64,000 nucleotides of DNA from Eledone cirrhosa (GCA_964016885.1 OZ024746.1:24366001-24430000), one strand, 5' to 3'; positions 4,256-58,094 are shown, numbered from the stretch's first letter. Notes: generated from the letters alone by a model not told the origin. Made by a program: numbers and translations.

Positions 4256-4984
4256 CCTTTTGTGAAACCGAAAAAAGAAAAAGAAAGAAAATCGGTTAAA
4301 ACTGGTGACCCGCATAAATACGAATTATGAAGCCCAGATTACAGCTAATAATACCATTTTCATTGAGTGGAAATTCACCGAACAGCTGAGAATACCTGAG
4401 GCAATGGTTGTTCCCTTTTCAAATGTAACATCGCTTAACACTTTTTCTTCTTCTAGTTGTTTGTACAGCTCAGAAGGGGTGCTTATTCGAGCTCAAATTG
4501 TAGCTAGAAATGTGCAGATCTCTGCAGCAGAAGTATCAGATGCCTCAAGGAGAAAAAATTAAAACGTGGAAACACCATCTCTCTATAAAAATCAGAATTA
4601 AAACTAAACAAACAAACATTTTTTTTTTATTCACGTTTAGTTAACTCTTTCCTAGCAATGAAACTATCGGCGTTCAGGAGACGGAAATCTCCGATTGATA
4701 ATGTTATTTTACATTACCTTAAATCAATTAGAATAATTTTCTTTCATATTTTCTTTAATCATATCAAACATAATTTAATTTAAATTATTATTTTTTTTTA
4801 CTGTTAAATCGTTCTGAATTTGCATAAACAAAATTCCTGCGGATACGTGGAAAAGAGATAAAGTGATTCCCCATGCATGTTACGATATTTCCTTTTCTTT
4901 TATTAATAAATCCTTCGGAATTTACATACACAGATCAATCAACTATCGTTCAATTCCATTTTATTTATATTATTACATACAACG

Positions 4985-5205
4985 GTTAATTGGCAGTTTC
5001 GATAGAGTGTCGGTCAACATGCTTTGTGGCATATAGTTACAGCCCTTTACGTTCTGAATTCAAATCCCACCGAGGTTAGCTTTGCCTTTCATCCTTAAAG
5101 GATCGATAAAATAAAGCAACAGTAATGCGCTGGGGTTGATTTAATCGACTTTCCCCTCACCCTAAAAAATTGTTGACCTTGTGCCTAAATCATAAACCAT
5201 TATTA
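4985..5205 (+). mobile_element. SINE family A, full copy
   Basis: A box, B box, core and ATT tail present. Further dispersed copies at about 1-85, 2525-2690, 8290-8650, 18075-18230, 19535-19700, 20897-21097, 25785-25925, 27125-27270, 28445-28640, 30090-30225, 34690-34870, 43795-44170, 46305-46440, 48770-48965, 51560-51730 and 58925-59067. Confidence 0.85.
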
Positions 5206-5853
5206 CATACAGCGTTTGTCTAATTCAAACGAAAGAACGTCAATTTGAATTCCTTTACAACCTTACTTCTTCAAATGTAATAACTTGGGTCTCATAGCAG
5301 GCGAATTTTGTGGAAAGCTGCTAATAACCTTTGTTTAGGTAATGAAATAGGTGTTCAACAGAAAACGTCATTGGATTTAATAAGCTTTGTCCAAGATATA
5401 AACAGGATTTCCAGTGACACGAGTTTAAATAGAGAGATTTGACATGGCTGTTAAACGTTCGTCACACGCGAATATTTTATTCATGTTCCGCACGGCTAAT
5501 ATATGCATGGTTGATAACAATTTCTTTTTAACATTTTCTATTCCGTTTAATGGCCTGCTTTAAAAAATCTTGCTTTATGAGAGATGACGAATATATTAGT
5601 CGTCTGCTTTTCAATAAGTTGACTGACGCCAGAGCTGTAAAATTTCCCACGAGAGAGCCGAATACTGATCGGGAAAAATGTTCTAATGAACACATACATA
5701 TACTCAGACACACATACATACACGCACAAACACAAACATACTCACAGGCACAGACATACACACCACACACACACACACACACATATATTTCTTTAGTGAT
5801 TACACCCACACATTCATGCAACAATATCTATATATCTATCAATCTATATGTAT

Positions 5854-8929: not shown

Positions 8930-9240
8930 TCTATATGCTATATTTTCTGTTATATTTTCTGTTATACGTTCTATGTGATAATTTCTATTGTATACTTATA
9001 TATTATACGTTATGTTGTTATAAGTTCTATCGCTATACGTTATATTTTATACATTCTATTATATACTTTCTGTTATACGTTCTATGCTGTACGTTCTATG
9101 CTATAATTTCTATGTTATACGTTCTATGCTATAATTTCTATGTTATACGTTCTATGCTATAATTTCTATGTTATAAGTTCTATGTTATACGTTCTATGCT
9201 ATAAATTCTATGTTATACTTTCTATGTTATACATTCTATG
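8930..9240. repeat. 7/14/21-mer minisatellite (TTCTATG/TTATACG)
   Basis: Direct inspection. Confidence 0.8.
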
Positions 9241-9954
9241 AAGGAAAATAAATGGAATAATTTCCTGTATTTCCCGTATCACACTGCCGTTTTATATTGC
9301 AGCGATATACAGGATGAATGTGTAACTGAATTTATCAAATGTAAAAGTCGAATGCTACTGAGATACAGTATTATCTCACACTGAATGTTAGTATCGATGA
9401 AGGCTGTCGCTAAAGAAGTGTGATAGGAATCGATTATTCTCACACGACGATCAAATCAATAGATTTACTCTTTCTGATTTCATTCCATTCCATTGCTTCC
9501 AGTCGATGATAAACGTGGACAAAATACCAAGGTACACTCGTTCCTTTTGTTATTTGAATGTTTAATCAGCAAAGCATCGAGTGACATTGTGTGAAGAAAC
9601 CAAAGAGAACAATAGGTTTGAATATGATAATTGTCAGTATTATCTGGTGAGCGTGTTTTGTGGTATCGCTTAATGTTATAACAGTTCTCCGGAGAGAATG
9701 ATTGCTGGGATTATTAAGTGAGAGAAATGAAATCGGTTTTTCCAGCATGCAAACTACGTCATTGAACATGATAACACAAAGGTAAACATATAAAGCAACA
9801 GACGTTATTATTATTATTAGTGGTCAATAAAGAAATAATAATAATGATTATTACTATTACTGTTATTATTAAATCTGTTTACACGCAAAACCTACACGCA
9901 CACATATGCACACCCAAATACACATACACACACATGCATACACACACGCTCAAT

Positions 9955-10031
9955 GTTTTGTCTTGTGTCGTTCTTAATGTTTTTCTTCATGTGAACCCTT
10001 TGTGGTTAATAAAGAAATTATTGTTATTATT
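9955..10031 (+). mobile_element. 5'-truncated Tx1 3' end (a second, tiny remnant lies at about 9820-9845)
   Basis: ttcttaatg..atgtgaaccctttgtggttaataaagaaattattgttatt resembles the LINE 3' terminus. Confidence 0.7.
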
Positions 10032-10034
10032 GCA

Positions 10035-10627
10035 GTGGATTGGCAGTATCGGTATAGCGTCGGTCAACATGCCTCGCGGCATAGAATTACGGCCCTTTAC
10101 GTTCTGAGTTTAAATCCGGCCGAGGTTAGCTTTGCCTTTCATCCTTACGGAGTCGATAAAATATCCCAGATTGTTGGTCTTGTGCCTAAAGTAGAAACAA
10201 TTATTATAAGGGATGGATTAACAGTATCGGTGGAGCGTCGGACAATATTCTTTGTGGCACAGAGTCACGGCCCTTTACGTTATGAGTTCAAATCCCGCCG
10301 AGATTAGCTTTGCCTTCTATTCTTACGATAAAATAAAGTACCAGTAACGTACTGAGGTCGATTTATTCGTCTTTCCCCCTCCCCTTCAAATTGCTGACCT
10401 TGTGCCTAAAGTAGAAACCATTATCATGATAAGGGCGGTGGGTTGGCAGTATTGGTAGAGCATCGGACAACATGCTCTGCAGCTTAGAGTTACGACCCTT
10501 TACGTTATGAGTCCAAATCCCGTCGAGGTTAGCTTTGCCTTCCATTTTTACAGGGTCGATAAAAATGATGTACCAGTAACGTACTGGGGGCCCCAAAAAT
10601 TGCTGGCCTTGTGCCTAAATCAGAAAC

Positions 10628-10670
<43 letters not shown>
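10035..10670 (+). mobile_element. Three head-to-tail copies of tRNA-derived SINE family A, each ending in ATT repeats
   Basis: A box TGGCAGTATCGG, B box GAGTTCAAATCC, core GCCTTTCATCCTTACGGGGTCGATAAAATAAAGTACCAG (Meta-domain-like, from memory), and tail CTTGTGCCTAAAGTAGAAAC-(ATT)n. Confidence 0.88.
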
Positions 10671-10852
10671 GAATGCCATGGTTGACGGAGGCTCGGCTCT
10701 GTAAGGTATAGTAAATTTTAACCGCTATAACAATTGTAAATTGTTTAAAACTTTAACCAAATTGTAGACAAAAACACCCTCCTCCTCGTGAGAGGGGTCT
10801 TTCTGTCCGTTATTTGGCCCTTCAGGGTTAAATAACCGCTTATTGGGGTGTT

Positions 10853-12997
10853 ATGCCCAATATTTATTTTAAACCAAAAAAAAACATGGCTACAAAAAAG
10901 AATTTTCACAAGTCACTCCCACTCATTCCGTTTTCTTCTTCCTCAATCGTCACTACACCAGAGAGAAGATTGTCTCTCTCCCTCCCTTCTCTTTCGCAAG
11001 CGACGCCAGTAAAGAAAAATAGTTTCCAAAATCACGTGCAAAACGTGGAACATTTCTCCACGACGACGACAACGACGAAAAAGGTGTGCGGTAAATACGA
11101 AAACCCATTTCATTCGTCTGACGTCATGAATAATAGCAGTAGCAGCCGTAATAACAACAGCAGCAGCAGCAACAGTGACAAGGAAAACAACAGTAGCAGC
11201 CGCAACAGCATCAGCAGCAGCATAAACAACAACAGCATTAGCAGCGACAGCAACAACAACAACAGCAGCAGCAACAACAACAACAACCACAGCAACAGCG
11301 GCGGCGGCAGTCGTAGTACCAGCAGCAACAACAAAAGTAACAGCAACTCTGACGACGACAACAACAACAACAACAAAGAAAAACCAATCTCGTTTGCAGG
11401 TATCGCAAAGAACCTGGAAACCATCCTTATAACAAATGAGGAATTACAGTAAGCAAAGAAGATGGTGACGAAAACTGGACACCGAGCAATCTGCAAGGCA
11501 GCCGAACATTTTTTCGAAACCCAACAGCACTGTACGGTCACGCACCGTACAGTAAGCACAAAATCCCGTAGGGTTGAAAGGGCCACAGAGGCTCAAATAC
11601 AAAAAGCCTTAGGGTCTGTGTGGCAGCGGAAAACGCATATCACCCGAGGCAAGAAATATGCCACCGTGGACCTGCTTTTTGCCACACTCCAGGAGGCAAA
11701 GGCTCAATCCTTAGTGACCCTAAGGAGCGTGGAAATGGTGTTGGTGCCCTCCTACTGCGGACAAAAAATTGTGAGGGTCAAACTGACCCACGTCCCCCTT
11801 CCCCGGGATGGCCCCTTCTTGGCTGGCCGCGTCTGTCCTCGTCGGAATCGAGGACAAAACAACTGTACTGCAAGTACAGAAAAAAGTACGAGAAGATTGG
11901 GTCGGCACCTCCATTGAGATGTTAATCCAAACCAACCAGGAGTGCATCAAAGCTATACCGGATGTGATAGACTTCGATAACGGCACTCAACTGCCCATAA
12001 GTGTTGAGGGCAAACGCCCGAAATGCTTTCGCTGTGGATCGAAGACTCACCTCAGGGCCTTCTGCAATGAGAACACCCTGAGAAAGGAGAAAACCCCCCT
12101 CCTTCCGAAACCGGCTCCACTGCTACCAACAACAGGACAAGCAGCGACCAGGAAGGATAGGTCCGTGGCACCCATACCCACGCCACGGAAATCAAGAACA
12201 GCAGCAGCAGTGGAAGTATTAACAACAACAACAGCAATACCAACTGCAGCTGCAACAGAGATTCCACTGCAAACATCACCAACAACAACAAGTGAAAGAG
12301 TGGAGCTGGTACCCCTCCCCGACCTCACAGAATCGGACATGGAGTGTGATGGCAAAAGGTCGCAAGAAGGCACAAACGCAGAAGCAGCGCATCGTCGCCT
12401 TCGAAAAGGGAGGAAAGAAACGAAAAAAGGGTAAAGGCTACTGCAAAAAGATTTACAGCAGCAATACCACCAACACCATCACCACCCACACTAGCACCAC
12501 CATCACCACCGACGGCAACCCCACCGCCAACAACAATAACACCTTCAACACCACCACCACAAGCACCAACATCGCAAACACAACAAAACACACACACCCA
12601 GCAACAACGACAAGAAAATAGCAGAACCACACCCCACCCCCAGAAAAACAAATGCACAGCAATAAATACACATAACAATAAATTAATGACTTACATAATT
12701 GAACACACAGACATTTCACAGCACGACTACATAATACCAGCACCAATCAAAACACCAACGAACATAAGACTGGTAAAAATAGCACAGAAACAATACACAA
12801 ACATTAAAACGAAATTCCCCAACGCAGTTGGTGATTTCAGAGACCTAGGAGGGACGCTCAACCGGAGGGTATATTCAGATATACTCACAGAAGAGCCGAC
12901 GACCAGCCGAAGGGGCGATTCAACGGTCCCTTCATCAGACGATCACGTGAAAAGGGATGGTGAAACCATCCTTCCTCTGCGAGAAGAAGTAAGGTAA
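10853..12997 (+). pseudogene. LINE ORF1 (gag-like) with nonsense and frameshift lesions
   Basis: In-frame TAA at 11450-11452, frameshift near 11800, and CFRCGSKTHLRAFC zinc knuckle. AAC/AGC/ACC expansions. The 3' boundary is approximate. Confidence 0.75.
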
Positions 12998-13031
12998 GTG
13001 GTCTTTCCCATCTTTTCCACTCCATTTCAAC

Positions 13032-16000
13032 ATGACCTCATTCAGAATAGGCAGCATAAATGCGTCATGGAAGCAGGGCCACCTGCTCAACGACCTCAGG
13101 TGACTAAACATAGATGTAGTGGCCATCAGCGAGACCAGAATCTCCGAAGCACGGGCCTTCGCACCGATCTTCGGCGGCTACGATGTGTACGCATCTACCA
13201 GCCGTACGGGATCGGGGGGGGGGGAGTTGCTGTGCTTTTTCGGAGAGGTTTGGATCTTGCCATACGGGCCATCTTCCTGGACCCAGAAGGTAAGTTGGTG
13301 GTGATGGACGTGACCAGCGGAGACGGGCAAGCTTTCAGGTTAGTGGCCGTCTATGCCCCGACAGGAGCAGGGCGGCCTGATTTCTTCCGGCGTCTGGAGA
13401 CCTTTCTTGGAACGTCCCGCTCTTTAGTGTTAGTGGGCGACTGGAACGGGATCTTAGATGCACGCTGGGATTGTGTGGGATTAGTGGATAGGGGAGGAGG
13501 GTGCAAGAGTCTCACCAACCTGCTCAGGCGTTTTGAACTGTCTGACAGGTACCGATTGGATTTCCCGAATGTACCAATGTGGACTTGGACAAATCGCATA
13601 GGGTCATCCAGATCATATCTAGATAGAGTATTTTGTAGGGAAATAGATAGGTCTAGCATAGGCTGTCCACAATTCAAGATAGTCAGCTACACGGACCACA
13701 AATTCGTGATCTGTGTGCTTGACTTAGATAGGCTTCATAGACGAGGACCCGGCTACTGGAAGCTAAACGCGTCCTTACCAGCGCGCAAGGCCTACAGAGA
13801 CCGGATTAGCGAACTAGTTAAGCGGGCGTTGACGGGGGCCATCGTCAACAACAAGTGGTGGTTTGCTCTGAAAAGAGCAATTAGAATAGAGTCCATTAGC
13901 TTTAGTAAGGCTTTAGCAATAGAGAAAAATAGAGCAGAGGGAGAATTAGTTAGAAAATTAGACGAGGCGCTTTGCAAAGGCATCGCGACCGACGTACTTG
14001 CGGTGAAATTGGCCCTTGACCAATTCTTCAATGCAAAGCACGAAGGCTGCGTTGTCAGAGCTAGGATGCGTGCTCTCAGACACGAGGGGACGAAAGCCGT
14101 TCAATGGGCCCGAGTGGCGGAGGCGCGTCGTGGCAACAAAGCCACGATCCGGTCTTTGGTGGACCGCGACGGGCGCATGCTACTCGATCCCGAGCAAATG
14201 TGTGAAGCTTTTCAGCGACACTTCGCTTAACTGTTCGGGGGCAGCGGCGGGCCGGATTGAGGGATGGACTTTAGTGTCTACCTCGACGGACTGCCGCGGC
14301 TCTCGGCCACTGAGGCGGAGTGTTGCGAAAAGCCGATAACAGCCGCTGAAGTACGGGAGGCAATGACTGGCTGCACAAGGGGTAAATCGCCTGGTTTGGA
14401 TGGTCTGCCCTATGAACTTTACGTACAAATGCCAGACTTGTTCGGAGGCCTCTTGGCAGACGTCTACTGCAACTGGCAACAGAACGGGAGAATTCCCAGC
14501 TCTGTGAGCCGAGGAGCGGTGGCGCTGCTGAGAAAGGATCCAAACAAGGGGGATAACATAGATAATTTTAGGCCCATAACTCTGCTAAACACAGAGTTCA
14601 AGATTTTGGCCAAGGTGCTAGCAAAGAGGTTGGCGCTTGTCATTGGTTGTCTGGTGGGAGAGGCGCAGATATGCGCCATTCACAACAGATCCATCCACGA
14701 CAACCTCCACCTCATGCGATACATCGTAGAGGGTGTAGCTAGGGAACCTGGCACGGGTGGGTCTTTGATAAATTTAGATCAGTCGAAAGCCTTCGATAGG
14801 GTCGACCATCGTTACCTAGCGGCAGTCCTGAGGGCGGCTGGCTTTGGGTCCGTCTTCAGAGGCTGGATCGCTGCCATGCACAGCGACATCTGCTCTGTGG
14901 TGAGAGTGAACGGTCACCTTTCGGAACCGTTCAACATCATGCGCTCGGTCCGCCAAGGATGTCCCCTCTCGTCTCTCTTGTACGTATTGACTCTCGAGCC
15001 ATTACTGCACAAACTGGAGACGTTGAGGGGGGTCCCGCGCGAACTAGGATGCGGAAGATCTGTGTCAGCATATGCGGACGATGTCACCGTAGTGGTGTCG
15101 AACGCCAAACACATCGAGGCGATCGGCACTACACTAAGAGAATACGAAGCGGTGACAGGAGCAATGATCAACCAGGAAAAGTCATTGGGCCTACAGCTCG
15201 GCACCTGGAGAGGCAGGTCCATGCCGTCCAACAGCGTCGTCGGGCGCTGGACGGACGGACCGGTTGAATTGCTAGGGGTCTGGTTCGGTCCGGACATCCA
15301 GACGGACAAAAACTGGGACGAGGTGACGAGCAGGGTGGCCTCTCTCACCCAGAAATGGGCCGAGAGGAAGCTATCCCTAAAAGGTCGAGCGGAGGTGGCT
15401 AACGCGTACATCGCGTCCGTCATCTACTACCGCCTGACCGTCGTACCTTGTCCTAAGCCCCGCCTGACTGCGCTGGAGCGTTTGCTCTTTCGCTTTTTGT
15501 GGAAGGGACGCGCTCCGATGGTCAGGCGGTCCATCTGCTGACAACACCCGCTACGTGGAGGGCTGGGCATGCCGTGGCTGATGATGCGCAGACACGCGCT
15601 CAGGCTACGACATCTCCACCTCTTCCTCGACGGTGATCAGGTGTGGTCGCCGTTTGCTAGACACGTCTTTCCCCAGCTCGTCTCCTTGACGGAGCTGCAG
15701 TCCTGGGTCAAGAGAAGACCGAGAGGGAGCGCTTGGAGACTGGAATGTTTTCAGGCGCTCACAGCCCTCGACCAATCGGGAAATGTGATCGGTGGAAACT
15801 CCACCTTGGCGTTCTATAGAGGATTAGTGGAGGGGAAGAGCGACGACGTACTTGGAGAAACTCTAGGCGTCGACGAAAATCAACTAGCCAATCTCTTCGG
15901 AAGGACTTTCGGGCCGGGGCCTATGGACAACTTCCAGAAATCCCTGGCCTGGCAGTGCTACCGGGGAGCTTTGCCAGTTCGAGATAAACTCTACAGGCAT

Positions 16001-16438
16001 GGAGGTGCCGTCAGCCGGGCATGTCCGAGATGCGCGCAGGACGACGAAACCGTCCTGCACGCACTCGTCCAGTGTCCGAGCATTGCTGACTTGTGGGTTT
16101 ATATCGAACACCTGCTGTCACGTGTAGGACGGATCCAGTTATCAGCTGAGTCCATCGTGAGGATTGCCCCGCCCTCTTCCTTTAGCCGGGAAGGGAAGGC
16201 AGTTTTTATCCGTCTGGTGGACATGGCGAAAGAGATAGTATGGTGGACACGTTTGAAAGGGTTGAAGACGAGCACTTACCTCTTCGGTGATGCTCTGATT
16301 GACTTTTTCAAATTTCATTTGAAAAGGAAAATCAGAGTAGAGAGGGAAGTGCTCTCTTCCCAGCATTTTGTTGAAAGATGGGTGAGAGAAGCAAGTATGG
16401 CCCGAATGAATGGGCCTTCTCTGAGTATGTGTCTGTAA
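13032..16438 (+). pseudogene. LINE ORF2: AP endonuclease, reverse transcriptase and C-terminal zinc motif
   Basis: Motifs MTSFRIGSIN.., VAISET, VYAP, GDWN, YLDR, TDH, GPGYWKLN, KSPGLDG, FRPITLLN, LDQSKAFDRV, QGCPLS, YADD and CPRC..ETVLHALVQC. Frameshift at poly-G near 13215 and in-frame stops near 13101, 14228 and 15539. Confidence 0.92.
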
Positions 16439-16680
16439 ATTAAAGGTGGAAAACTGGGAGAGGGCACTTGCCCTGGTGGTCAGGGCCACTGTGGTCTTTT
16501 AATGGGCTTTCTCCACAAATGTCCCTTGGAAGTCTCCCCCCTATTGGGGAATTTTTCTTTGTTATTTTATTTCAACCTCTGTTTTTTTACACGCAGAAAT
16601 GCCCATTTGTACCGTCCTGTATTGTCCTGTACTGTCCTTAATGTCTACTTTATGTGAACCCTTGTGGTTAATAAAGAAAA

Positions 16681-16719
<39 letters not shown>

Positions 16720-17257
16720 CATTATTATTCATTTATGTATTTATTTATTCATTCATTTAGAATTGCTAACACGTTAACATTCAACAAGGACCAATCAATA
16801 TTTTAGATCACAGAAACTATTCTTACTGGAATAATACTCGCTCTCGTGCCTAATAATTTTATCAGAGTAGATTCAGAAAAGCTCCCGACTTGGTAAAATT
16901 ACACAGCAATATAATTCAACATTGCGGAAGAGAAGTTTTGGTTCGTGCTGATATTATAGTTGAGAAATAGCCAACTTCTTCAGATAACATATTGATTTCT
17001 ATACATACCATATCGTTATCGTTACTATTTTCATCAAATGTACAAGACGGTTTATAGGATACTAAAGTTTCATCTGTAAAGTCACTGTGGAAGTATTCAT
17101 CGTTAAAGTTCTCTCACGACTTTGAAGTGAAGAGATATTATCTTTTGCAAAAGATACCAAATTAAAATGCTTAGTTAATTACATCCTGGTCTCGTACGCT
17201 ATTAATAGCTGAAGTGTTAAGTGTCTTCGACAGGTCTCTTCGAAAGTGGTACGTACT

Positions 17258-25167: not shown

Positions 25168-25465
25168 GCTGGTGATCACGAGGCTAAGGCATTGGAACAA
25201 CCAAGTACCCTCATTCAGAACATCAGCCGATATTTCATTAACACTAGATGATAGCGTGGTTAAGTTGCCGGAATAACCAGACACCCTCATCAGGATTGCC
25301 GCATGATATTTTAGTAAGGCCAGGTGATGGCGAGGCTAAGTTGCCGGGACAATCAAGCACCCTCATCAGGATTGCCGCATGATATTTTAGTATGGCCAAG
25401 TGATGGCGAGGCTAAGGTGCTGGAACAACCAAGCAGCCTCGTCAGGAGCATCACCTGATATTTCA
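25168..25465. repeat. Four tandem about 76-bp units with internal self-complementarity
   Basis: Consensus approximately CAGGTGATGGCGAGGCTAAGGTGCTGGAACAACCAAGCACCCTCRTCAGGA..TGATATTTYAGTAAGGC. Confidence 0.85.
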
Positions 25466-26083: not shown

Positions 26084-26302
26084 CAACAGCAGCAGATGAA
26101 AAAAAAAAGCAACTGTAACACGATGTTTCGGTTCTAAGTGTTAGTTTAATCAAGCAGAGTTTCCACGGCGGCCATGATAAAGTGTAATGGTGTACGAAGA
26201 ACAAACATCAGATTTATTCTTATAACCCATTGCTACAGTCATTGGATTTCCGCAATTCTTTCCCGCCAACACTGATTTCTATAGAAGTAATAATAATAAT
26301 AT

Positions 26303-26360
<58 letters not shown>

Positions 26361-26362
<2 letters not shown>

Positions 26363-27100
26363 CTTTATTAACCGCAAGTGCTCACATAAAGGAAAACGTT
26401 TAGGACGCTACAGGACGGTACAAATATGGGTTTCTGCGTATTTAAAAAGAAAACACAATAACAATAACAAAAGATGTAACAAGAAAAGGGAAACAAATAT
26501 ACCCCAATAGGGGCCTGAACGCGTCCCTTGTTAACCCGCACGAAGGACGATGCGGTATGGTTCTTTTTCGTTCCTCTGACCACATTGCAGTTTCGGTGGT
26601 CTTATTCGCGCCAGTCACAAATCTGGTACTTTCTCAAAGCCACGAAGATTAGGCTTTTGTAGAGGCGGCCTTTACTCGCCTCGTCATATCTATGTCACTG
26701 GGTTGTGAGAGTTTTCTTGGGAGCTACAAGTGTCACCCATTGCTCCATTTCCCCTAGTAGTTTACCGCTGTTGGTCCGGGGTTGCTTATTCGTCCGACAG
26801 CTGCCCGCTTACATCGCAACTAACCACCAACATATCTGGTGGCCGTGTTGTTATCCACCACCTGCGACCTGTTCTCTAGCAGAACAGCTCCTATTCCTTT
26901 CTATATTAATTTTCTCAATTTTTAAAAAAGTTATTTACCTGTCAACTTTTGTGATGTGACTTGTTAAGTGAGGGCGGAATAATATGAAAAATAAAAATTA
27001 AAAAAGCTTTGGAAAACTGTCAAAGCCAACGATGCTTGCTCTAAGTATTTGGTTGGTACTCGGTAGCCATTGTGTATAAAGCGAAATCAAAGGAAAATCT
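26361..27100 (-). mobile_element. About 740-bp non-autonomous element carrying the Tx1 3' UTR
   Basis: Minus-strand 3' end cccatatttgtaccgtcctgta...tttatgtgagcacttgcggttaataaagaaa-(ATC)n matches LINE 16601-16680. It also shares CCCCTATTGGGG. No RT coding sequence recognised. Confidence 0.75.
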
Positions 27101-28689
27101 AATGATAATAATAATAATGAATATAATAATGATAATGGTTTCTGATTTAGGCACAAGGCCAGCAATTTTGGGGGAAGGGAAAGTCGATTAAATCGACTCC
27201 AGTGCGTTACTGGTACTTTATTTTATCGACCCCGTAAGGATGAAAGGCAATTTGAACTCGAACGTAAATAATAATAATAATAATAAAAGAAATTGCTTAG
27301 GTCAACAACAACAATATTTACCTCTATCTAGGTAATCATCTCTACTCATGCTTCTGGTATCACTAGGGGGTTAGAGAGAAATTACTTTAGGTAAGTAGAT
27401 GGACAGTAGGAATGATTTAGACATGCAATAAACCTATTCTTCTTTATTTTTCTTCGTTAACAATGATTACTAGAATCTTCCGTGCAGCAGTGGTGAACGT
27501 ATCAGGTCACTATGGACTGATTATTTCAATTCTGTTCCAAGTAATTGTAATTTTCTGTTAACTTCTACGACAATCTCACTAATGACGTCACGTCTTTGAA
27601 CAATGACCACATGAAAGTCAGTAATATTGGCGAAACTTTGAAGTAAAACAATCAGCATTAATGGTTTCTAATTTAAGTATAAAGAAAGACTGGCGAATTG
27701 GCAGAATTGGTAGAGCATCGGACAAAATATTTTGTGGCATTCTGCCAATATTAAAAACAGTTATTTCGTCTATTTCCCAGAACAATAATGAAATGTTTAG
27801 TTCCCTAAGTGAAATACAGTAGGAAACCTCCTATACAGAAAGTGAGTAATACTGGCGAAACTTTGAAATAAACAATCAGTATTAAGGCCTGCAATTTTGA
27901 GGAGAGGGAATAATCGAATAGATTGAGCACAGCACTTGACTGGTACTTTATTTTACCGGCTCCAGAAGGATGAACAATAGAATAACGTTGGGGGGATTTA
28001 ATCTCGGAACGTAAAAGGCAGAAATAATACGACGAGGTGTTTTGTCCAAGGCTCTATATAAAGTATATGAATCCTTCATTCAGTGCATGTTAGGTTTTTA
28101 CCATAAAGACCTCCTTTGGTCACGAATAACCATGGGTTTTGCACCTAAAAACTTTCCCTCTGTGGCATAAGCCCGGGCAAGGTGTTTTTTTCTGTCGTCC
28201 ATGCATACCAGTCTCCATTTTCCGTGCCATCGGAAAAAAATAAAAGCCGATTCAGCTTTGTGTCAGTGACGTCGCAACTCATTTTCTCCAGTTGAGTGAA
28301 CTGGAGCAACGTGAAATAAAGTGTCTTGCTCAAGGACACAATTCATTGCCCGGTCCAGAAATGGAATTCACAACCTGACGATTGTGAGTCCAAGAACCTT
28401 ACCCTTGCCACTAAGCCATAAAACAAACATTTATATAGAGATAATATAATTGTTTCTACTTTTAGCACAAGGCCAGCAAATTACCAGTGTATTACTGGTA
28501 CTTTATTTTATCGACCCCGTAAGGATGAAAGGCAAAGTTAACCTCGGCGGGATTTGAACTCAGATCATAAAGGGAGGTAACTCTATGCTTCAAAGCATGG
28601 CGCCCGACCCTCTACCGATACTGCCAATCCACCGCCCTTTTATATAGAGATAATATTTATATAGAGATAATATAATAAAATAACGGTTG

Positions 28690-34225: not shown

Positions 34226-36222
34226 GACATTCTCGCTCTACATGGCTCAATACAATAAATGTAATCTGAGTTTTTCGAATATTAATAATTGTTTCTACGT
34301 TAGGCACAAGGCCAGCAATTACCTAGTGTATTACTGGTACTTTATTTTATCGACCCCGTAAGGATGAAAGGCAAAGTTAACCTCGGTTATTAAGTTATTA
34401 ATAATAACATTTGATTCGTTTGCAATTATACAAACAAGCCTCATTTTTATAACCATGTCAGTAGAATGAACCCTTCATTCTTGCTCTTTTGTTGGCATGT
34501 AAACAGAATTGCAAACGAATTGAATGTTATTATTAATATTCGGGGTCGATGAAGTAAAGTACCAGTAATGTACTGAGTAATTGCTGGCCTTGTGCCTAAA
34601 ATAGAAACAATTATTAATATTCGAAAAACTCAGATTACATTTATACATATACATATATATATATATGCATATGTCTTTACATTTATTATGCAGTATCGGT
34701 AGAGGGTCGGACGCCGTGCTTTCCAGCATAGTTACGTCCCTTTATGATCTGAGTTCAAATCCCGCCGAGGTTGACTTTGCCTTTCATCCTCACGGGGTCG
34801 ATAAAATAAAGTACCAGTAATGCACTGGGTAATTGCTGGCCTTGTGCCTAAAGTAGAAACAATTATTACTATATAATAATAAATGTGAAGACTAAAATCC
34901 GAAGAGGACTTGATAAGGATAAAATTTTCAATAGAATCGAATTCATTACACTCACTTCTACGTGACTTTGGAAAAGCTAGTGCAGAAAATATTTTCGTTC
35001 AACAAATTTATTTACATTATTCTTAAAATAAAGTACCAGTAATGTACTGAGTAATTGCTGGCCTTGTGCCAATAGTAGAAACAATTATTCTTAACTCTGG
35101 AGCTGAGAATTATTCGGTTTCCTAAATAGAATATTAGTCTAATGACTCCATTTATACCATAAACGTGGTTTTGGTTTTTTGTCTTTGCGTGAAATTGTTC
35201 TCATTGTTCCACATAACGACGTATTATCTTCGCTTTTTTCCGTTCATTGCCAGGGAACGTCTTCACGAACCGAAGTATCGTCTTCCTGTTTTCCTTCGGT
35301 TGCAACGTTTTTCGAAATATTTACTTCTGCGTCCACAGATTGTTTTTTGTTTTTTTTTTGTTTCAGAAAATCCCGTTAAGGGAGAAAACAGCGTCTTTGC
35401 TTAAACTTTAATCTGTCATTTTAATATAGCTATATCAAGCGTTAACCTAATATATCCCTTCCATATACTGTACCGATTGTGTTGTTATTTCTGTTTACCT
35501 TTTACATACATATATATATATATATATCAGGATTACCAGTTTTAAACTAGTAAGAACTTTGTTCAACAGAGTACTCGATACTTGGGATAGTAGAGTGTCG
35601 GGGCTTGACAGCTGAGCTCTTACCGTTTCGACAGCAAATTCCACATTGAGTGAGTAATTGACATTAGAGTGAATATATTTCCTATGACTTCGTCACTATA
35701 ATATATATATATAAAAAATTTAATATAGAAATTGCTTCTCCAGGACTAAACTTTCCAGGTGATTTCCTTTGAATGAAACAGTTCTAGTCCTGTAGAAGCA
35801 ATTTCTATATCAAATTTGTTGTATACACTCTACTAATATATTGACTACCTTACTTACCGTGATTACCTCCGATTGGACTCATATATATCTATATATATCT
35901 ATCTATCTAAGGCGGGTAAAATTCCCGAGATCCATGGACGAGTTCTCTCCAGCGGTCTCTGTCCCTCATTATCGCTGCCATGTCCTGCGTCTCCAACAGA
36001 CCAGTGTCTGTCCTTGGGGCATCAACATACGTTAACCTTATATATATATATATACATTTTGAGGATATGTTGGTTGTTTACCGATACCTCAGTATGGAGG
36101 TTGGAGCACTCGACGAAGTACGCAGGTTGGTTTGTTTACTCCGGAGTAATGTAAAATAAGTAAGTCATGTTACATTTGTAACATGTAACATGTTAAATTT
36201 GGCTTCATTTATTATAAATTCT

Positions 36223-41432: not shown

Positions 41433-41654
41433 AATATATACCAGTTTTATAAATAAACATTGACGTACCGTTACTTTTGGAAGACATCAGGATAGTGGTT
41501 TGTTATTTGTTTTGTAAGATTTTTTATCTGAAAAGGTATGTTGAAACAAATATTGTTATACTTTGGGAAGGTCATGTTGCCAATAAAAACACACGTACCT
41601 GTCGGTTTTCACTTTAATATTATAATTTTCCATCAGTTAGTTGAATAACCGTTG

Positions 41655-42115
41655 AATAATAATTGTTTCTACTTTTGGCACAAGGCCAGCAATTATTCCA
41701 GTGTATTACAGGTACTTTATTTTATCGACCCCGTAAGGATGAAAGGCAAAGTTAACCTCGGCGGGATTTGAACTCAGACCACAAAGGGCCGTAACTCTAT
41801 GCATCAAAGCATGGTGTCCGACCCCTGAATAATAATTGTTTCTACGTTAGGCACAAGGCCAGCAATTACCTAGTACATTACTGGTACTTTATTTTACCGA
41901 CCCTGTAAGGATAAAAGGCAAATAATAATTGTTTCTATTTTAGGCACAAGGCCAGCAATTACTCAGTACATTACTGGTACTTTATTTTATCGACCCCCGT
42001 AAGGGTGAAAGGCAAAGTTAACCTCGGCGGGATTTGAACTCAGATCATAAAGGGACGTAACTCTGTGCTTCAAAGCATGGTGTCCGACTCTCTACCGATA
42101 CTGCCAATCCACCAA
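41655..42115 (-). mobile_element. Head-to-tail trimer of SINE family A
   Basis: Three aataattgtttcta..ggcacaaggccagc units, two of them truncated. Confidence 0.85.
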
Positions 42116-49899: not shown

Positions 49900-51225
49900 A
49901 ATAATGGTTATGGTTTCTAATCTAGGCACAAGGCCAGCAATTTGAAGGAAAGACGAAAATCGATATGAACCCAAGAAGGATGACAAAGTTGACACATGGG
50001 ATTCGAACTCAGAATGTAAACAGTCAGAACAAATACCAGAAAGCATTTGTCGGATGCTCTAACAATTCTGCCAATCCAGCGTCCTTTCTGGTTAATAATG
50101 GTTTTTACTATAAGGCACAAGGCCAACGATTTGGTGGGGAGGGGAAAGTCGATTAAATCGACCTCGTAAGGCAAGGCTAACCTCGGCGGGACGTACCTCA
50201 ATGCCACAAAGCATGTCCTACGCTCTACTGATATTACCAATCCACTGCCCTCTTTCTGGTTAATAATAATTGTTTCTACTTGTTTGCACAAGGCCAACAA
50301 TTATCCCAGTGTATTACTGGTACTTTATTTTATCGGCCCCGTTAGGATGAAAGGCAAAGTTAACCTCGGCGGGATTTGAACTCAGTCCGTAAAGGGACGT
50401 AACCGTGCTGCAAAAATAATAATTGTTTCTACTTTTGGCACAAGGCCAGCAAATTAATCAGTACATTACTGGTACTTTATTTTATCGATCCCGTAAGGAT
50501 GAAAGGCAAAGTTAACCTCGGCGGGATTTGAACTCAGATCGTAAAGGGACGTAACTACGCTGGAAAGCATGTCTGGCCCTCTATCAATTCACCGCCAAAA
50601 AATAATAATTGTTTCTACGTTTGGCACAAGGCCAGCAATTACCCAGTGCATTACTGGTACTTTATTTTATCGACCCTGTAAGCATGAAAGGCAAAGTTAA
50701 CCTCGGCGGAATTTGAACTCAGAATGGCAAGGGTCGTAACTCTATACGTCAAAGCATGGTGTCCGACACTGCCAAAAAATAATAATGATTTCTACTATAG
50801 AGACAAAGCCAGCAATTTTGGAGAGGGGAAAGTCGATTAAATCAAACCCAATGCATTACTGAAACTTTATTTTATGGACATCGCAAGGATAAAAGGCAAA
50901 GCTAACCATAATAATAATAGTTTCTACTTTTGGCACAAGGTCAGCAATTATCACAGTGTATTACTGGTACTTTATTTTATCGAACCCGTAAGGATGAAAG
51001 GCAAAGTTCACCTCGGCGAGATATGAACTGACCATAAAGGGCTGTAACTCTTTGCTGCAAAGCATGGCGTCCATCCCTCTACCGATACTGCCAATCCACC
51101 GCCCCTCAAATAATTTGTTTCTACTTTTGGCACAAGGCCAGCAAATTATCCAATACATTACTGGTACTTTATTTTATTTTATAGACCCCGTAAGGATGAA
51201 AGGCAAAGTTGACCTTGGCGGGAAA
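49900..51225 (-). mobile_element. Head-to-tail chain of about 8 SINE family A copies
   Basis: Unit tails at about 49900, 50093, 50260, 50415, 50600, 50778, 50908 and 51108, with variable 5' truncation. Confidence 0.88.
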
Positions 51226-55058: not shown

Positions 55059-57230
55059 TCAGTCACTATCTGAGTCATCCGACAAGTTGACAACATTAGA
55101 AGAGGCCTTCAGTTTATCCTTACAGATTATTTGACTAGTTACATAAATACACTTTGACTTTCCAGGATGTTTTACTTGAATATGTTTCAAAATTACCCGC
55201 CTCTGGCTGTTTTTCGCCTCGCAGTGTGGACAATGGACATACTTCAGTAAGTTCAACTGCAAGTGCTGCAACAACTCGCTGCTGCATTGAAATAGGAGAC
55301 CACAGTAAGCACAGCAGAATTCTGGCTCTTCAGAATGAACGGATTCATTATGTTGTACAAACATCTTGACAAGGTTAGTGTTGAAACCACACATGGAACA
55401 AGAATAAAGAAGGAACATGTCTGTAGAAATATGAGTAGATAAGTGTTTTAGAAAGCAGTCAATAACAGGAAATGCTTGGCCACAATGTGCACAAACATAA
55501 TCAGCTTTGTTTTGACTATGTAGGTTACGCATGTGGTCTTTAAATTCCTCTAGAGTAAGGCTAGAGAAAGAACAGTTTGAAAAGCCACATATATAAAAGT
55601 TACCTCCATAGAGTTCATTTTTCTCTTTAGGATAAAGATTTGCATTGTTATTGGAGGTCATTGAAGCAGTCATCCCTGACTTAACTAGAGTAACATTTTC
55701 ACTGTTAATGTTTGAAGAAACTGTTAAACTAGATTCCTCAGTAACAGATCCTTCGTTGGGTATCACATTAGAAGGGAGAGATTTTTTAGTAGGCATCCTA
55801 ATTTCACATTTAGTTGCTCCAGATAATTGATTACTTGACAACGTATTTATGGCAATGTCATCAACTCCTTTAGTATCTGACCCGAATTTATTCTTAAGTG
55901 AGGGAGGAGGAGGTTGTGTTTGTTCCTCATCATCATCATACATCAGATCTAAATCAATAATCTTGGAACCAGGAATGTCACTATTGGTGTCTCTAACCGA
56001 CCAAACTTCTCCCACCTTGATGTCGTTGCAGCTATCAGATTCTTCAGACACTGCATCCTGTTCGGCTAGCTTTGCTGAAACATGAGATAATGTGTCCTCG
56101 TCAACTGGTTTAGCTGGAATATCAGATTGATGAGCAAGTAATTTAGAAATGGTTTTTTTATCAATGAGTGACCGGCTGAAGGAAGTTGTAGGCAAATGGT
56201 TATATGATTCAGTGGGGTTATGTTTCTGGATATTTATGCCCATTACTTTTGGATTTGATGCAGGAGGGTTTGGATTTGATGCAGGAGGGTTTGGATTTGA
56301 TGCAGGAGGGTTTTCATTTGATGCATCTGTCAATGTTTTACATGTATAAATATTTTTCGAGAGTATATTAGGAACATTTACATTAGGAACTACATTTGAG
56401 AGAGCCGAGTTAGACTGAACAATGAATGGTGAGATATTTCCTGGAGCATATATGTTGGAGAATGGTGTAGTTGCAATGAGATTCATTACATTAGGTTCAA
56501 GAGAGTTGGCAAAATTTGGGCTATATGGTATTATTTTGTATTTGCTAGTATTAATTGGTGAGACAACAGGTAGAGAAGGTGATACCAATTTAGGAGGGAG
56601 TAGAACTGTCACAAAGTCTTTATTTTGGTTATCAACACTTTGGTTAGCCTGAATGTTACTTGCAAGTGCATAGGGAGTAAGAGTTGTGGTGGTTGCTGAC
56701 TGTACATTAGAAGACAATACTGATGGTTGAGTCATTGATGTGTTTTGAATAGAGCCCACAGATATTGGTTTAGCTGAAGGTGTAAGAATGAGTGGTTGAT
56801 AGCTAAAGGATTTACTTGTGCCTGGGATATTAATAATAATCGGTTGCATAGCATCAGTAGATTTCACTGAAACTTGAGATGTCTGTACTTCAGATGGAGC
56901 ACTAACAATAGGGATATTCTGTTTTGAAGGGGGCGTTGAATGGCCTTTTGGTAATATATTTGGTAATATAGTAGGTAATACAACAGTATGCTTCTTTGTA
57001 GGAGTATTAGTTTTTTTCTGTTTAGTGAAGAAAGATGCGTGCTTATGTGAGGAATTAACACGTGCAGTTGTTGGTGGATTTATAGGCGAGTCTCTACGTG
57101 AAGAGTCAGTGTAGGTTTGTTCTTTGTTTTTTGGGGTCAACTCTTGAGACCCGGAGTCAGTCGAGGCGTCACTGATAATTAGAGAATTAGATTGTTCCTG
57201 TAATCCATCTAATTTCAGTTGGCTGTCTAG
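55059..57230 (-). CDS. Zinc-finger protein, C-terminal segment (about 723 codons): S/T/P/N-rich region plus about 5 spaced C2H2 fingers, in frame with the upstream ORF
   Basis: Stop-free frame from 57230 (LDSQLKLDGLQEQSNSLIISDASTDSGSQELTPKN...) to TGA at 55061-55059. Fingers CGFSNC..H..H, CAHC..H..H, CSMC..H..H, CAYC..H and CPHC..H..H. No TGEKP linkers. Confidence 0.85.
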   Translation of the reverse strand, partial: LDSQLKLDGLQEQSNSLIISDASTDSGSQELTPKNKEQTYTDSSRRDSPINPPTTARVNSSHKHASFFTKQKKTNTPTKKHTVVLPTILPNILPKGHSTPPSKQNIPIVSAPSEVQTSQVSVKSTDAMQPIIINIPGTSKSFSYQPLILTPSAKPISVGSIQNTSMTQPSVLSSNVQSATTTTLTPYALASNIQANQSVDNQNKDFVTVLLPPKLVSPSLPVVSPINTSKYKIIPYSPNFANSLEPNVMNLIATTPFSNIYAPGNISPFIVQSNSALSNVVPNVNVPNILSKNIYTCKTLTDASNENPPASNPNPPASNPNPPASNPKVMGINIQKHNPTESYNHLPTTSFSRSLIDKKTISKLLAHQSDIPAKPVDEDTLSHVSAKLAEQDAVSEESDSCNDIKVGEVWSVRDTNSDIPGSKIIDLDLMYDDDEEQTQPPPPSLKNKFGSDTKGVDDIAINTLSSNQLSGATKCEIRMPTKKSLPSNVIPNEGSVTEESSLTVSSNINSENVTLVKSGMTASMTSNNNANLYPKEKNELYGGNFYICGFSNCSFSSLTLEEFKDHMRNLHSQNKADYVCAHCGQAFPVIDCFLKHLSTHISTDMFLLYSCSMCGFNTNLVKMFVQHNESVHSEEPEFCCAYCGLLFQCSSELLQHLQLNLLKYVHCPHCEAKNSQRRVILKHIQVKHPGKSKCIYVTSQIICKDKLKASSNVVNLSDDSDSD

Positions 57231-57902
57231 TCACTTGACTGGTGGAACACACTGTTCCCTATATAAGTTATCCTTCAAATTATTGTTCCTCGGCTTACAT
57301 ACATCTGAACATAGCCTCACAGCAGACATGTTTTTCAGCATTGACAGAGATGACTGAGGGATTTTAGAATCTGTAACAGTTACAGTATCTGGCTGGGTAA
57401 CTGATGTTGAAGAGAGAATCATATTTTGTTGATCCACATGGAAATCAGTGACAGGAACTGCGGTTGCCTTTTCAGGGTTTACTATATCCTCAAAAGGAAC
57501 AAGACTAAACATTAAATTCTTGGATGCATGTTTTACAGAATGGTGGACTTTGATAGAACTGACTTTAGAGAAATATCCACGACAATGGTAGCAGCGCAGT
57601 AGGAAAGTAGTTGTGGTGGGTGTCTTGCCTTCCAGGTATGGTTCTTCAAGCTGAAGCAGAAACTTTTTATGTTTCTTCTTTTCACTCTCAGATTGATTTG
57701 TGGTAGAAATCCTTTTTCTGTTGAACGATCGACACAAAGAGATATGTGCCTCGTATAACGCTCCATCATCTGTCGTAAACTTACAGCCAGGACATCGCTG
57801 AACACCATACTTTGACCAGTCAACAGAACCAGCTGGCTTCTCTTTAGGGATATTTCCAGAATTTTCCACCGTTTTTGACTTTTCTTTCTCACTGATATTC
57901 AT
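57231..57902 (-). CDS. Zinc-finger protein, N-terminal segment (223 aa) ending at an in-frame TGA in readthrough context
   Basis: ATG at 57902 in good context (ccaaaATG) with an upstream in-frame stop. Fingers CPGC-x12-H-x3-C and CYHC-x12-H-x4-H. Ends AAG TGA CTA G. Confidence 0.8.
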   Translation of the reverse strand: MNISEKEKSKTVENSGNIPKEKPAGSVDWSKYGVQRCPGCKFTTDDGALYEAHISLCRSFNRKRISTTNQSESEKKKHKKFLLQLEEPYLEGKTPTTTTFLLRCYHCRGYFSKVSSIKVHHSVKHASKNLMFSLVPFEDIVNPEKATAVPVTDFHVDQQNMILSSTSVTQPDTVTVTDSKIPQSSLSMLKNMSAVRLCSDVCKPRNNNLKDNLYREQCVPPVK

Positions 57903-58094
57903 TTTGGTTTGTTTATTATCTTTTCCCCGTGGTTTCCACAGTTCACCTTCGTATCAGAGGAAGTTTCTAGATATTCAGCACATGAGAAACTCTAACAAAC
58001 CATTTTCCCCATTCCAATGTCTGAGGAACAGAATAATGTATTTTGTATGGTAACAAATAAACTGCCAAATAACATTCAGACTTTAAGATGGTTC
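57903..58094 (-). other. 5' UTR part of the large exon, preceded by a splice acceptor
   Basis: Minus strand reads ttttcttattttcttatttttcctctattttcAG|GAACC, with the AG at 58096-58095. Confidence 0.7.

What the first reader, a model, noticed from the sequence alone, without database searches (positions are those of the whole stretch)
9805..16730. (ATT)n-targeted Tx1 LINE, SINE and non-autonomous derivative that use each other's tails as landing pads
Seen: 9.8-16.7 kb is a co-oriented chain of (ATT)n, two Tx1 3' stubs, three SINE copies, (ATT)n, the full Tx1, then (ATT)n. The LINE sits in the SINE's ATT tail. The 3' ends align without gaps: LINE CCTTGTGGTTAATAAAGAAAACATTATT versus SINE CCTTGTGCCTAAAGTAGAAACAATTATT. 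Established: several Tx1-clade families are microsatellite-specific (Kibi TC, Koshi TTC), and SINEs commonly borrow a partner LINE's 3' end. Inference: an ATT/ATC-specific Tx1 family mobilises this tRNA SINE, and each insertion creates a new target. I do not know of this being described, but could not search.
Basis: partly seen in the sequence, partly recalled or inferred. Interest (0 to 1): 0.72.

Follow-up and report, generated by a model that had tools for sequence, protein, structure and literature searches.

The report
SINE–LINE pair stacking at ATT sites
In what appears to be an octopus-type genome, a very abundant short jumping element lands at short ATTATT sites and duplicates them, so its copies pile up head to tail, and it probably borrows its copying enzyme from a Tx1-type long jumping element that ends in the same small RNA hairpin, a partnership of a known kind that I did not find described for this group.

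Summary
The chain is real: two Tx1-type 3' stubs, three SINEs, (ATT)14, a full-length but dead Tx1-like LINE (10671-16681), and an ATT tail. The closest named relatives point to an octopod host.

SINE targeting is well supported. There are 45 SINE hits in 64 kb. All 14 adjacent pairs are co-oriented. Clean 11-19 bp target-site duplications (TSDs) start with ATTAT. The target is a short ATTAT(T) motif, not a microsatellite. The TSD itself regenerates it, and a simple model of this predicts 13 adjacent pairs against 14 seen.

The Tx1 partnership is plausible, not proven. The match is 15/22 nt (1 of 265 ATTAT sites), with a shared CUUGU loop closed by different, compensating stems. The hairpin is weak, and no other LINE family's 3' end could be compared. 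Dong-R4, a TAA-targeting clade active in octopus, is the main rival. LINE targeting rests on four pieces in two clusters. The 'non-autonomous derivative' is a single copy.

Precedents are Kibi/Koshi, SINEU/Tx1-Mar and the maize L1/SINE hairpins. The scan noted similar stacking in other genomes. Verdict: new variant of a known kind.

The parts
9805..9819 (+). (TTA)5 run, 5' flank of stub 1
9820..9835 (+). Stub 1: last 16 nt of a Tx1-type 3' end (15/16 match to the LINE end), followed by (AAT)4 in the opposite orientation and then degenerate ATT units
9856..9870 (+). 5' copy of a candidate 15-bp target-site duplication of stub 2 (14/15 identical to 10017-10031; low complexity)
9871..10016 (+). 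Stub 2: 5'-truncated Tx1-type 3' UTR with an AC-rich insert; last 64 aligned nt 83% identical to the LINE end
10017..10031 (+). Tail / 3' copy of the stub 2 duplication; SINE 1 follows directly
10030..10208 (+). SINE copy 1 (A- and B-box-like motifs at 10041 and 10107), 88% to the window majority sequence
10211..10431 (+). SINE copy 2 (long variant), 85% to majority, 81% to copy 1
10432..10628 (+). SINE copy 3, 88% to majority, 83% to copy 2; ends in the CUUGU-loop hairpin
10629..10670 (+). (ATT)14: tail of SINE 3 and 5' flank of the LINE
10671..16681 (+). Full-length but inactivated Tx1-like non-LTR retrotransposon; member of a high-copy, 3'-biased family
10886..12997 (+). ORF1 region, broken by a stop and frameshifts; CX2CX4HX4C zinc knuckle at 12024-12065 (read from the translation, no Pfam hit)
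13032..16438 (+). ORF2 region: APE endonuclease (PF03372, E 1.5e-9), reverse transcriptase (PF00078, E 6e-29), zf-RVT (PF13966, E 7e-9); broken near its start and by three in-frame stops
16649..16677 (+). Predicted 3' stem-loop; upper stem AACC/GGUU closing loop CUUGU (16661-16665)
16682..16729 (+). (ATT)12-16 tail / 3' flank of the LINE
26358..27099 (-). About 740-bp element directly behind a SINE tail; last 134 aligned nt 81% identical to the LINE 3' UTR; rest non-coding and single-copy in the window; 5' boundary inferred
26289..26360 (-). (ATC)19 tail followed by (ATT)4 of the 26-27 kb element
27100..27284 (-). ATT run, 5'-truncated SINE (27262-27126) and its ATT/ATC tail, upstream of the 26-27 kb element
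49901..51223 (-). Chain of eight co-oriented SINE copies; copy 50251-50093 is flanked by a 16-bp duplication
41653..42113 (-). Chain of three SINE copies; the last is flanked by an 11-bp duplication that matches the downstream flank
4982..5212 (+). Solitary SINE with a 13-bp duplication starting ATTATT (likewise 20896, 28638, 30101, 34540, 35024)

Best explanation
A Tx1-clade LINE lineage of an octopod supplies the endonuclease and reverse transcriptase for its own RNA and, in trans, for an abundant tRNA-type SINE. Shown: the SINE integrates with 11-19 bp duplications whose first bases are ATTAT(T), in the same orientation as its own ATT end. Each insertion therefore turns one target into two, one on each side, and later copies land there to form head-to-tail chains. 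Shown: SINE and LINE end in the same CUUGU loop at the same distance from AGAAA and the ATT repeat, closed by different but pairing stems. Inferred: by target-primed reverse transcription the bottom strand is nicked 3' of AATAAT and the RNA's (AUU)n end anneals to the freed 3' end. The LINE protein recognises the loop (stringent-type 3' recognition). The LINE uses the same kind of site, here a long ATT run behind SINE 3. Inferred: the LINE came after SINE 3, because it is closer to its family than the SINE is to its own.
For: 14 of 14 adjacent SINE pairs are co-oriented, against 15 of 30 other neighbours; 0.87 adjacent pairs are expected at random. 11 of 31 copies not behind another SINE have ATTAT in the 5' 28 nt, against 2 of 31 for the reverse motif and 5.5% background. 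14 of 32 copies have a duplication score of 11 or more, against 55 of 992 mismatched pairs. A model in which each insertion duplicates an ATTATT site predicts 13.2 adjacent pairs. The 3' match is 15/22 and unique among 265 ATTAT sites. Three of four stem pairs change on both sides between LINE-type and SINE rows; slid controls give 0-1. Only 3 of 103 non-SINE CTTGT words are closed by 3 or more pairs, and only the LINE's also has AGAAA and an ATT tail. All 7 runs of 4 or more ATT/AAT units in the window lie in the two clusters that hold Tx1-type ends. Stub 2 has a 14/15 duplication starting ATTA. Older Tx1-type ends (81-83% identical) show that the lineage overlapped the SINE's age range. The family is high-copy.
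Against: The shared tail is only about 22 nt, and similarity stops upstream of the stem. The hairpin is not thermodynamically unusual: z -1.71 for the LINE and -0.75 to +0.84 for the five SINE ends folded. The fourth stem pair holds in only 12 of 30 SINE copies, and the 26-kb element breaks the closing pair. The covariation is in effect one contrast (2 LINE-type rows), on a structure I derived from these sequences. 20 of 31 solitary copies lack ATTAT at the 5' side, and 18 of 32 have no duplication scoring 11. With the 5-mer ATTAT as target the model under-predicts chains (6.6 expected, P 0.002). Stub 1 is followed by opposite-orientation AAT units, and the 26-kb element by ATC. Dong-R4 elements target TAA repeats, the same duplex, and outnumber L1-Tx1 among recent O. 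vulgaris insertions, 1129 to 421.
Confidence: 0.58

Rival explanations
1. Another LINE (Dong-R4, CR1, L2 or RTE) drives the SINE. The Tx1 resemblance is chance or a tail exchanged in the past, and the Tx1 copy merely fell into an AT-rich run.
For: Dong elements target TAA microsatellites, including one in a snail (PMC3812793). Dong-R4 and CR1 have more recent insertions than L1-Tx1 in O. vulgaris (1129 and 787 against 421). Most listed animal SINE partners are L2, CR1 or RTE, and none is Tx1 (Table 1 of PMC3747384). The match is short.
Against: The anchored match and the shared loop are unlikely by chance in this window. For the active O. bimaculoides RTE, ATTAT occurs once and ATAAT three times in a file of 211 insertion calls (weak, since many duplications are unresolved and the host may be another species). 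That Dong's sense-strand repeat is TAA rather than ATT, and that CR1/L2 rarely leave 11-19 bp duplications, is recalled and was not checked.
Confidence: 0.22
2. Tx1 is the partner but its endonuclease is not ATT-specific. It nicks AT-rich DNA loosely, and only nicks whose 3' end can pair with the RNA's (AUU)n tail are extended, so the site preference is set by annealing.
For: The duplications begin exactly with the tail sequence, and the shared part is often only 5-6 nt. Tails vary among Tx1-type ends (ATT, ATC, ATA). An unchecked scan note reached this reading for a shark SINE.
Against: Known Tx1 families are commonly sequence-specific, and target choice is attributed mainly to the endonuclease (PMC4494074). 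The two longer Tx1-type pieces lie at some of the few long ATT runs in the window. The sequence cannot separate the two steps, and both may contribute. This rival overlaps the best explanation in partner identity.
Confidence: 0.3
3. The chains are tandem duplications or single-event multimers made by reverse-transcriptase template jumping, not repeated targeting.
For: Many chain junctions show only ATT units with no unique duplication, including all three in 10.0-10.6 kb. Template jumping by non-LTR enzymes is cited in PMC4494074.
Against: Neighbours in chains are 62-92% identical (13 pairs), no more alike than other pairs (median 74%, maximum 97%). Individual copies inside chains carry their own duplications (50251-50093, 41824-41653). 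Solitary copies show the same target motif.
Confidence: 0.08

Closest known systems
Kibi (TC)n, Koshi (TTC)n and crocodilian Tx1 families in (TTCC)n/(TTTC)n (Kojima 2015, PMC4494074; passages and parts 3-4 of 5 read)
   Same: Tx1-type APE-RT element sitting in a simple repeat; the reverse transcriptase is 40% identical to an alligator protein named 'transposon TX1 149 kDa'
   Different: Here the unit is ATT (A/T only) rather than a C/T-rich repeat, the host is an octopod, and specificity is shown only for the SINE and suggested for four LINE pieces
SINEU with Tx1-Mar in crocodilians (PMC4494074)
   Same: A SINE inferred to be trans-mobilised by Tx1, sharing its target and often inserted in tandem
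   Different: SINEU has snRNA heads and targets a Mariner element; the paper found no LINE sharing the SINEU-1 3' end. Here a tRNA-type SINE shares a 3' hairpin with the LINE and regenerates its own target
Maize/sorghum SINE2 with LINE1-1_ZM, and stringent pairs such as UnaSINE/UnaL2 (Ohshima 2013, PMC3747384; passages and Table 1 read)
   Same: Shared 3' stem-loop with conserved loop and compensating stems between a SINE and an L1-group LINE
   Different: That shared region is about 50 nt and in plant L1; here it is about 22 nt and Tx1-like, in an animal. No Tx1 partner is in that table
Dong (R4 clade; Dong, DongAg, DongBg) targeting TAA repeats (PMC3812793; passages read)
   Same: Same duplex repeat as target; the clade is abundant and recently active in octopus
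   Different: The element here has an N-terminal APE domain and zf-RVT; R4-clade elements have a restriction-like endonuclease (PMC4640811)
Octopus SINEs OK, OR1, OR2 (Ohshima and Okada 1994; paper not seen, names and library lengths only)
   Same: tRNA-type SINEs abundant in octopus; this SINE may be one of them or part of one

Membership tests
Tx1 clade | ORF2 with N-terminal APE endonuclease, RT and C-terminal zinc-binding domain (L1-group architecture) | tested here: met
   PF03372, PF00078 and PF13966 in order; best solved relative is human L1 ORF2p, E 1e-39, ahead of R2, E 2e-22
Tx1 clade | RT groups with Tx1 families rather than L1 proper in a phylogeny | tested here: inconclusive
   The tree of 29 rows (28 chosen from the homologue lists) puts the RT with Argonauta (100/99) in a cephalopod-containing clade joined to a vertebrate group holding the alligator 'TX1' protein (96/97). 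No curated Tx1 families or L1 outgroup were available, and the name is an automatic annotation
Tx1 clade | Separate ORF1 with a gag-like CCHC knuckle (recalled feature) | tested here: met
   CX2CX4HX4C at 12024-12065 in the translation; no Pfam hit
Microsatellite-specific Tx1 (Kibi/Koshi type) | More than 20% of family flanks are one repeat type (criterion in PMC4494074) | not testable with these tools
   No genome held; junctions skipped in the read layout; collection scans gave no host DNA. Locally, 4 of 4 pieces touch ATT-type runs
Dong/R4 clade | Restriction-like endonuclease, no APE | tested here: not met
   APE domain present at the N-terminus
tRNA-derived SINE | Internal Pol III A and B boxes | tested here: met
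   Box-like motifs in copies 1 and 3, B box only at the expected place in copy 2 (the consensus patterns were recalled)
tRNA-derived SINE | Head traceable to a tRNA | tested here: inconclusive
   ARAGORN found 0 genes and Rfam gave no tRNA match at E <= 1 over 9700-11000; decayed heads often fail these tests
tRNA-derived SINE | Short, non-coding, dispersed, 5'-truncated copies with tail and target-site duplications | tested here: met
   45 hits, many truncated at the 5' end, with duplications
SINE superfamilies (CORE, Deu/Nin, Meta, V, Ceph) and OK/OR1/OR2 | Central conserved domain sequence | not testable with these tools
   Motif searches in the held supplements of two papers found no match for the central motifs, and one file in each was not searchable; Repbase, Dfam and SINEBase were not available
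Stringent SINE/LINE pair | Shared 3'-terminal sequence with a conserved stem-loop | tested here: met
   15/22 identity, shared loop, compensating stems; short, and weak in energy
Stringent SINE/LINE pair | Best match among all LINE families of the genome; trans-mobilisation | not testable with these tools
   No other LINE ORF was found among 121 filtered window ORFs; no genome; no assay
Non-autonomous LINE derivative | Multi-copy family with LINE 5' and 3' ends and internal deletion | tested here: inconclusive
   3' end 81% identical; no coding match to 323 relatives, no 5' UTR match, one copy in the window

The most novel reading that the evidence does not exclude
One of the most abundant repeats of octopus genomes is driven by a cephalopod Tx1 lineage that has both an ATT-specific endonuclease and stringent recognition of a 5-nt RNA loop. 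It would be an animal tRNA-SINE/Tx1 pair with a shared 3' hairpin, of which I found no description. LINE, SINE and a short derivative would form a self-seeding system in which every insertion doubles its own target, so that element chains and long ATT runs grow together and insertions are steered into earlier insertions.
Probability: 0.35. Interest if true: 0.68.

Novelty: new variant of a known kind. Interest (0 to 1): 0.47.

Why it matters
SINEs make up 11.6% of the O. vulgaris assembly and most recently active families are unclassified. None of the passages I read names their partner LINE. If the Tx1 link holds, it names the engine of an octopus-specific SINE expansion. It extends stringent 3'-hairpin recognition, known from L2/CR1/RTE pairs and one plant L1 lineage, to the Tx1 clade. 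It also adds ATT to the Tx1 target list. The two testable handles are small: a 5-nt loop and a 6-nt target. The stacking itself follows from ordinary target-site duplication and is not a new mechanism.

Tried and rejected
No whole genome is held, so the decisive flank census could not be done. Laying four runs on 10600-16760 showed a high-copy family, but the tool skipped both repeat junctions. The 25,337 loose ends at 14022 in the RAD run were set aside as a probable library artefact, because reads start at GCATGC sites and the loose ends sit at an AATT site (inference). No RNA holder was listed. The metagenome scan for the LINE end gave 2 matches, neither with an ATT tail or LINE context, and I treated them as chance. 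Viral and prokaryote collections gave nothing. The first pair count used an alignment with a misplaced gap and was discarded; it was redone without stub 2. Rfam gave only sub-threshold hits on the SINEs and the 26-kb element. The Atlas named only the RT domain. Pfam found no other retroelement ORF among 121 filtered ORFs. Literature searches listed no paper whose listing, or passages I read, describes an ATT-targeting Tx1 or an octopus SINE/Tx1 pair. However, Repbase Reports, Kojima and Fujiwara 2004, Ohshima and Okada 1994/2005 and Akasaki 2010 were not seen, and they could already hold this. Rejected: tandem duplication as the origin of the chains; reading the SINE target as a microsatellite; Dong/R4 membership of the LINE.


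Full report
Observation. The LINE end motif occurs four times in the window with at most one mismatch, against 0.01 expected. The fourth copy ends a minus-strand element near 26.36 kb whose tail is (ATC)19. Stub 1 is followed by four AAT units, the opposite orientation, so the chain is not perfectly regular.

The LINE. ORF2 carries APE endonuclease, reverse transcriptase and zf-RVT domains. The ORF1 region has a CCHC knuckle read from the translation (no Pfam hit). Both ORFs are broken. Most reads from other copies differ from this copy at two of the stop codons (23,493 of 24,245 at 14228 and 22,748 of 25,388 at 14258, first mates on + in run X24), so those lesions are copy-specific. The family is high-copy: 54,152 contigs were laid in X1, 339,214 reads in X24, 56,049 contigs in X4 and only 116 in X10. 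Depth rises about tenfold from the 5' end to ORF2, as 5' truncation predicts. The best named relatives are from Argonauta hians (71%) and Sepia pharaonis (49%), which points to an octopod host (inference). An alligator protein named 'transposon TX1 149 kDa' is 40% identical. A tree of 29 rows joins the cephalopod-containing clade to the vertebrate group holding it, but lacks curated references and an L1 outgroup. Tx1 membership is likely, not formally tested.

The SINE and its target. A profile built from eight window copies found 45 hits, seeds included. All 14 pairs within 25 nt of each other are on the same strand, against 15 of 30 other consecutive pairs. Random placement gives 0.87 such pairs, at most 6 in 20,000 trials. 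Of 31 copies not directly behind another SINE, 11 have ATTAT in the 28 nt at their 5' edge and 2 have the reverse motif; background is 5.5% (P 5e-7). Thirty-two of the 45 copies had a usable 3' end. Fourteen of these scored 11 or more for a flanking duplication, against 55 of 992 mismatched pairs. That count is inflated inside chains by the shared SINE end. The clean cases with unique sequence are at 4982 (13 bp), 20896 (17), 28638 (16-18), 30101 (19), 34540 (14), 35024 (11), 41824 (11) and 50251 (16), and all start with ATTAT or within two bases of it. Eighteen of 32 show no such duplication. The target is therefore a short motif in unique DNA, and the tail is often no longer than the duplicated target. 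A model in which every insertion doubles an ATTATT site (75 free sites) predicts 13.2 adjacent pairs, against 14 seen. With ATTAT (225 sites) it predicts 6.6, and with ATTATTA (23 sites) 20.2. Chain neighbours are 62-92% identical (13 pairs), which excludes recent tandem duplication.

The shared end. The last 22 nt before the tail match at 15 positions (LINE 16660-16681; the SINE majority end occurs verbatim at 34840-34861). Four of 109,959 non-SINE positions reach that score, the LINE included. Of 265 ATTAT sites only the LINE reaches 14 or more, even allowing shifts. The LINE has AACC-CUUGU-GGUU and the SINE has (U)GGC-CUUGU-GCC(A/U). Among 30 copies anchored on the loop (5 more lacked it), the three inner pairs hold in 30, 25 and 28 copies and the fourth in 12. 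On 12 distinct rows, three pairs change on both sides, and slid controls give 0-1. This is in effect one evolutionary contrast, on a structure I drew from these sequences. Only 3 of 103 other CTTGT words are closed by three pairs. Against this, folding energies are unremarkable, the 26-kb element breaks the closing pair, and similarity ends at the stem.

LINE targeting. The evidence is local. All seven runs of four or more ATT/AAT units in the window fall in the two clusters that contain Tx1-type ends. Stub 2 is flanked by a 14/15 duplication starting ATTA. Both longer Tx1-type elements lie directly behind a SINE tail, if the 26-kb element starts at 27099 (inferred). That is four pieces in two clusters, not a family census. 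The read layout skipped both junctions and collection scans returned no host DNA. Order of insertion is inferred from divergence: 57% of X1 contigs laid are at least 95% alike to this LINE copy, whereas SINE 3 is 88% to the window majority. The 26-kb element has 134 aligned nt at 81% to the 3' UTR, no coding match to 323 relatives and no second copy. It could equally be the truncated end of a sister family with a long UTR.

Mechanism. By the established model of target-primed reverse transcription, a duplication that begins with ATTATT on the sense strand means a bottom-strand nick 3' of AATAAT and pairing of the RNA's (AUU)n end with the primer (inference). Whether the endonuclease or the pairing selects the site cannot be told from sequence. 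Either way the duplication leaves a site on both sides of each new copy, which accounts for co-oriented chains without any special landing-pad property of the tails.

Comparison with what is known. I read passages and parts 3-4 of 5 of Kojima 2015 (PMC4494074). Tx1 families target TC, TTC, TTCC and TTTC repeats, snRNA genes and transposons. SINEU is inferred to use Tx1-Mar from shared targets, inserts in tandem, and for SINEU-1 has no LINE with the same 3' end. In Ohshima 2013 (PMC3747384; passages and part 1 of 2 of the tables), Table 1 lists no Tx1 partner, and maize/sorghum L1-SINE pairs share a hairpin with conserved loop and compensating stem. PMC3812793 (passages) gives TAA repeats as the Dong target. 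PMC13282606 (parts 1-2 of 3) lists Dong-R4 and CR1 above L1-Tx1 among recent O. vulgaris insertions; its supplement and Zenodo library were not seen and may bear on naming. For Petrosino 2022 (PMC9115989) I read passages and searched two supplements. The RTE file has ATTAT once and ATAAT three times in 211 calls, many unresolved. I saw passages of PMC4824008 (plus section 9 and a supplement search), PMC4758252, PMC5804259, PMC8967140, PMC10294476 and PMC4640811. Ten searches turned up no description of this pair, but Repbase, Dfam and the subscription papers on octopus SINEs were out of reach. Scan notes on other genomes report similar stacking; they are unchecked and were not used as support.

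Verdict. A Tx1 partnership through a small conserved loop is more likely than not (about 0.6), and an ATT-specific endonuclease is open. New variant of a known kind; interest 0.47.

Noticed in passing
window 55059-57953 (-): A 965-codon reading frame resembling a host zinc-finger exon (weak C2H2-type Pfam hits), interrupted by one in-frame stop at 57231-57233; this may be a sequence error, a pseudogene or an exon boundary.
   Followed up: partly
window 34283-34386 (-) and 34540-34616 (+): Two SINE 3' halves in opposite orientation share the same 30-nt downstream flank, suggesting a small inverted duplication; they are not independent insertions.
   Followed up: no
window 28639-28673: The target-site sequence of SINE 28638-28441 is present twice in tandem on its 5' side (17-bp unit), as if left by an earlier event at the same site.
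   Followed up: no
whole window: 32 of 45 SINE hits are on the minus strand, the strand of the putative host exon; chains account for part of the bias.
   Followed up: no
window about 27070-27040 (-): Near its inferred 5' end the 26-27 kb element has ATGGCTAC, the same eight bases that start ORF1 of the LINE (10886); a weak hint of an internally deleted sister element.
   Followed up: partly
SINE copies, e.g. 10211-10431 versus 34689-34871: Two length variants differ by an internal block of about 20-30 nt just before the 3' hairpin, and both occur within the same chains.
   Followed up: no
window 9890-9950: An AC-rich microsatellite has grown inside stub 2 from an ACACGCA seed in the Tx1 3' UTR.
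   Followed up: no
window 8960-9240 and 25171-25463: Tandem arrays with 14-bp (20 copies) and 76-bp (about 4 copies) units.
   Followed up: no
window 10772-10870: The LINE 5' UTR contains two apparent hairpins, seen only through sub-threshold Rfam alignments.
   Followed up: no
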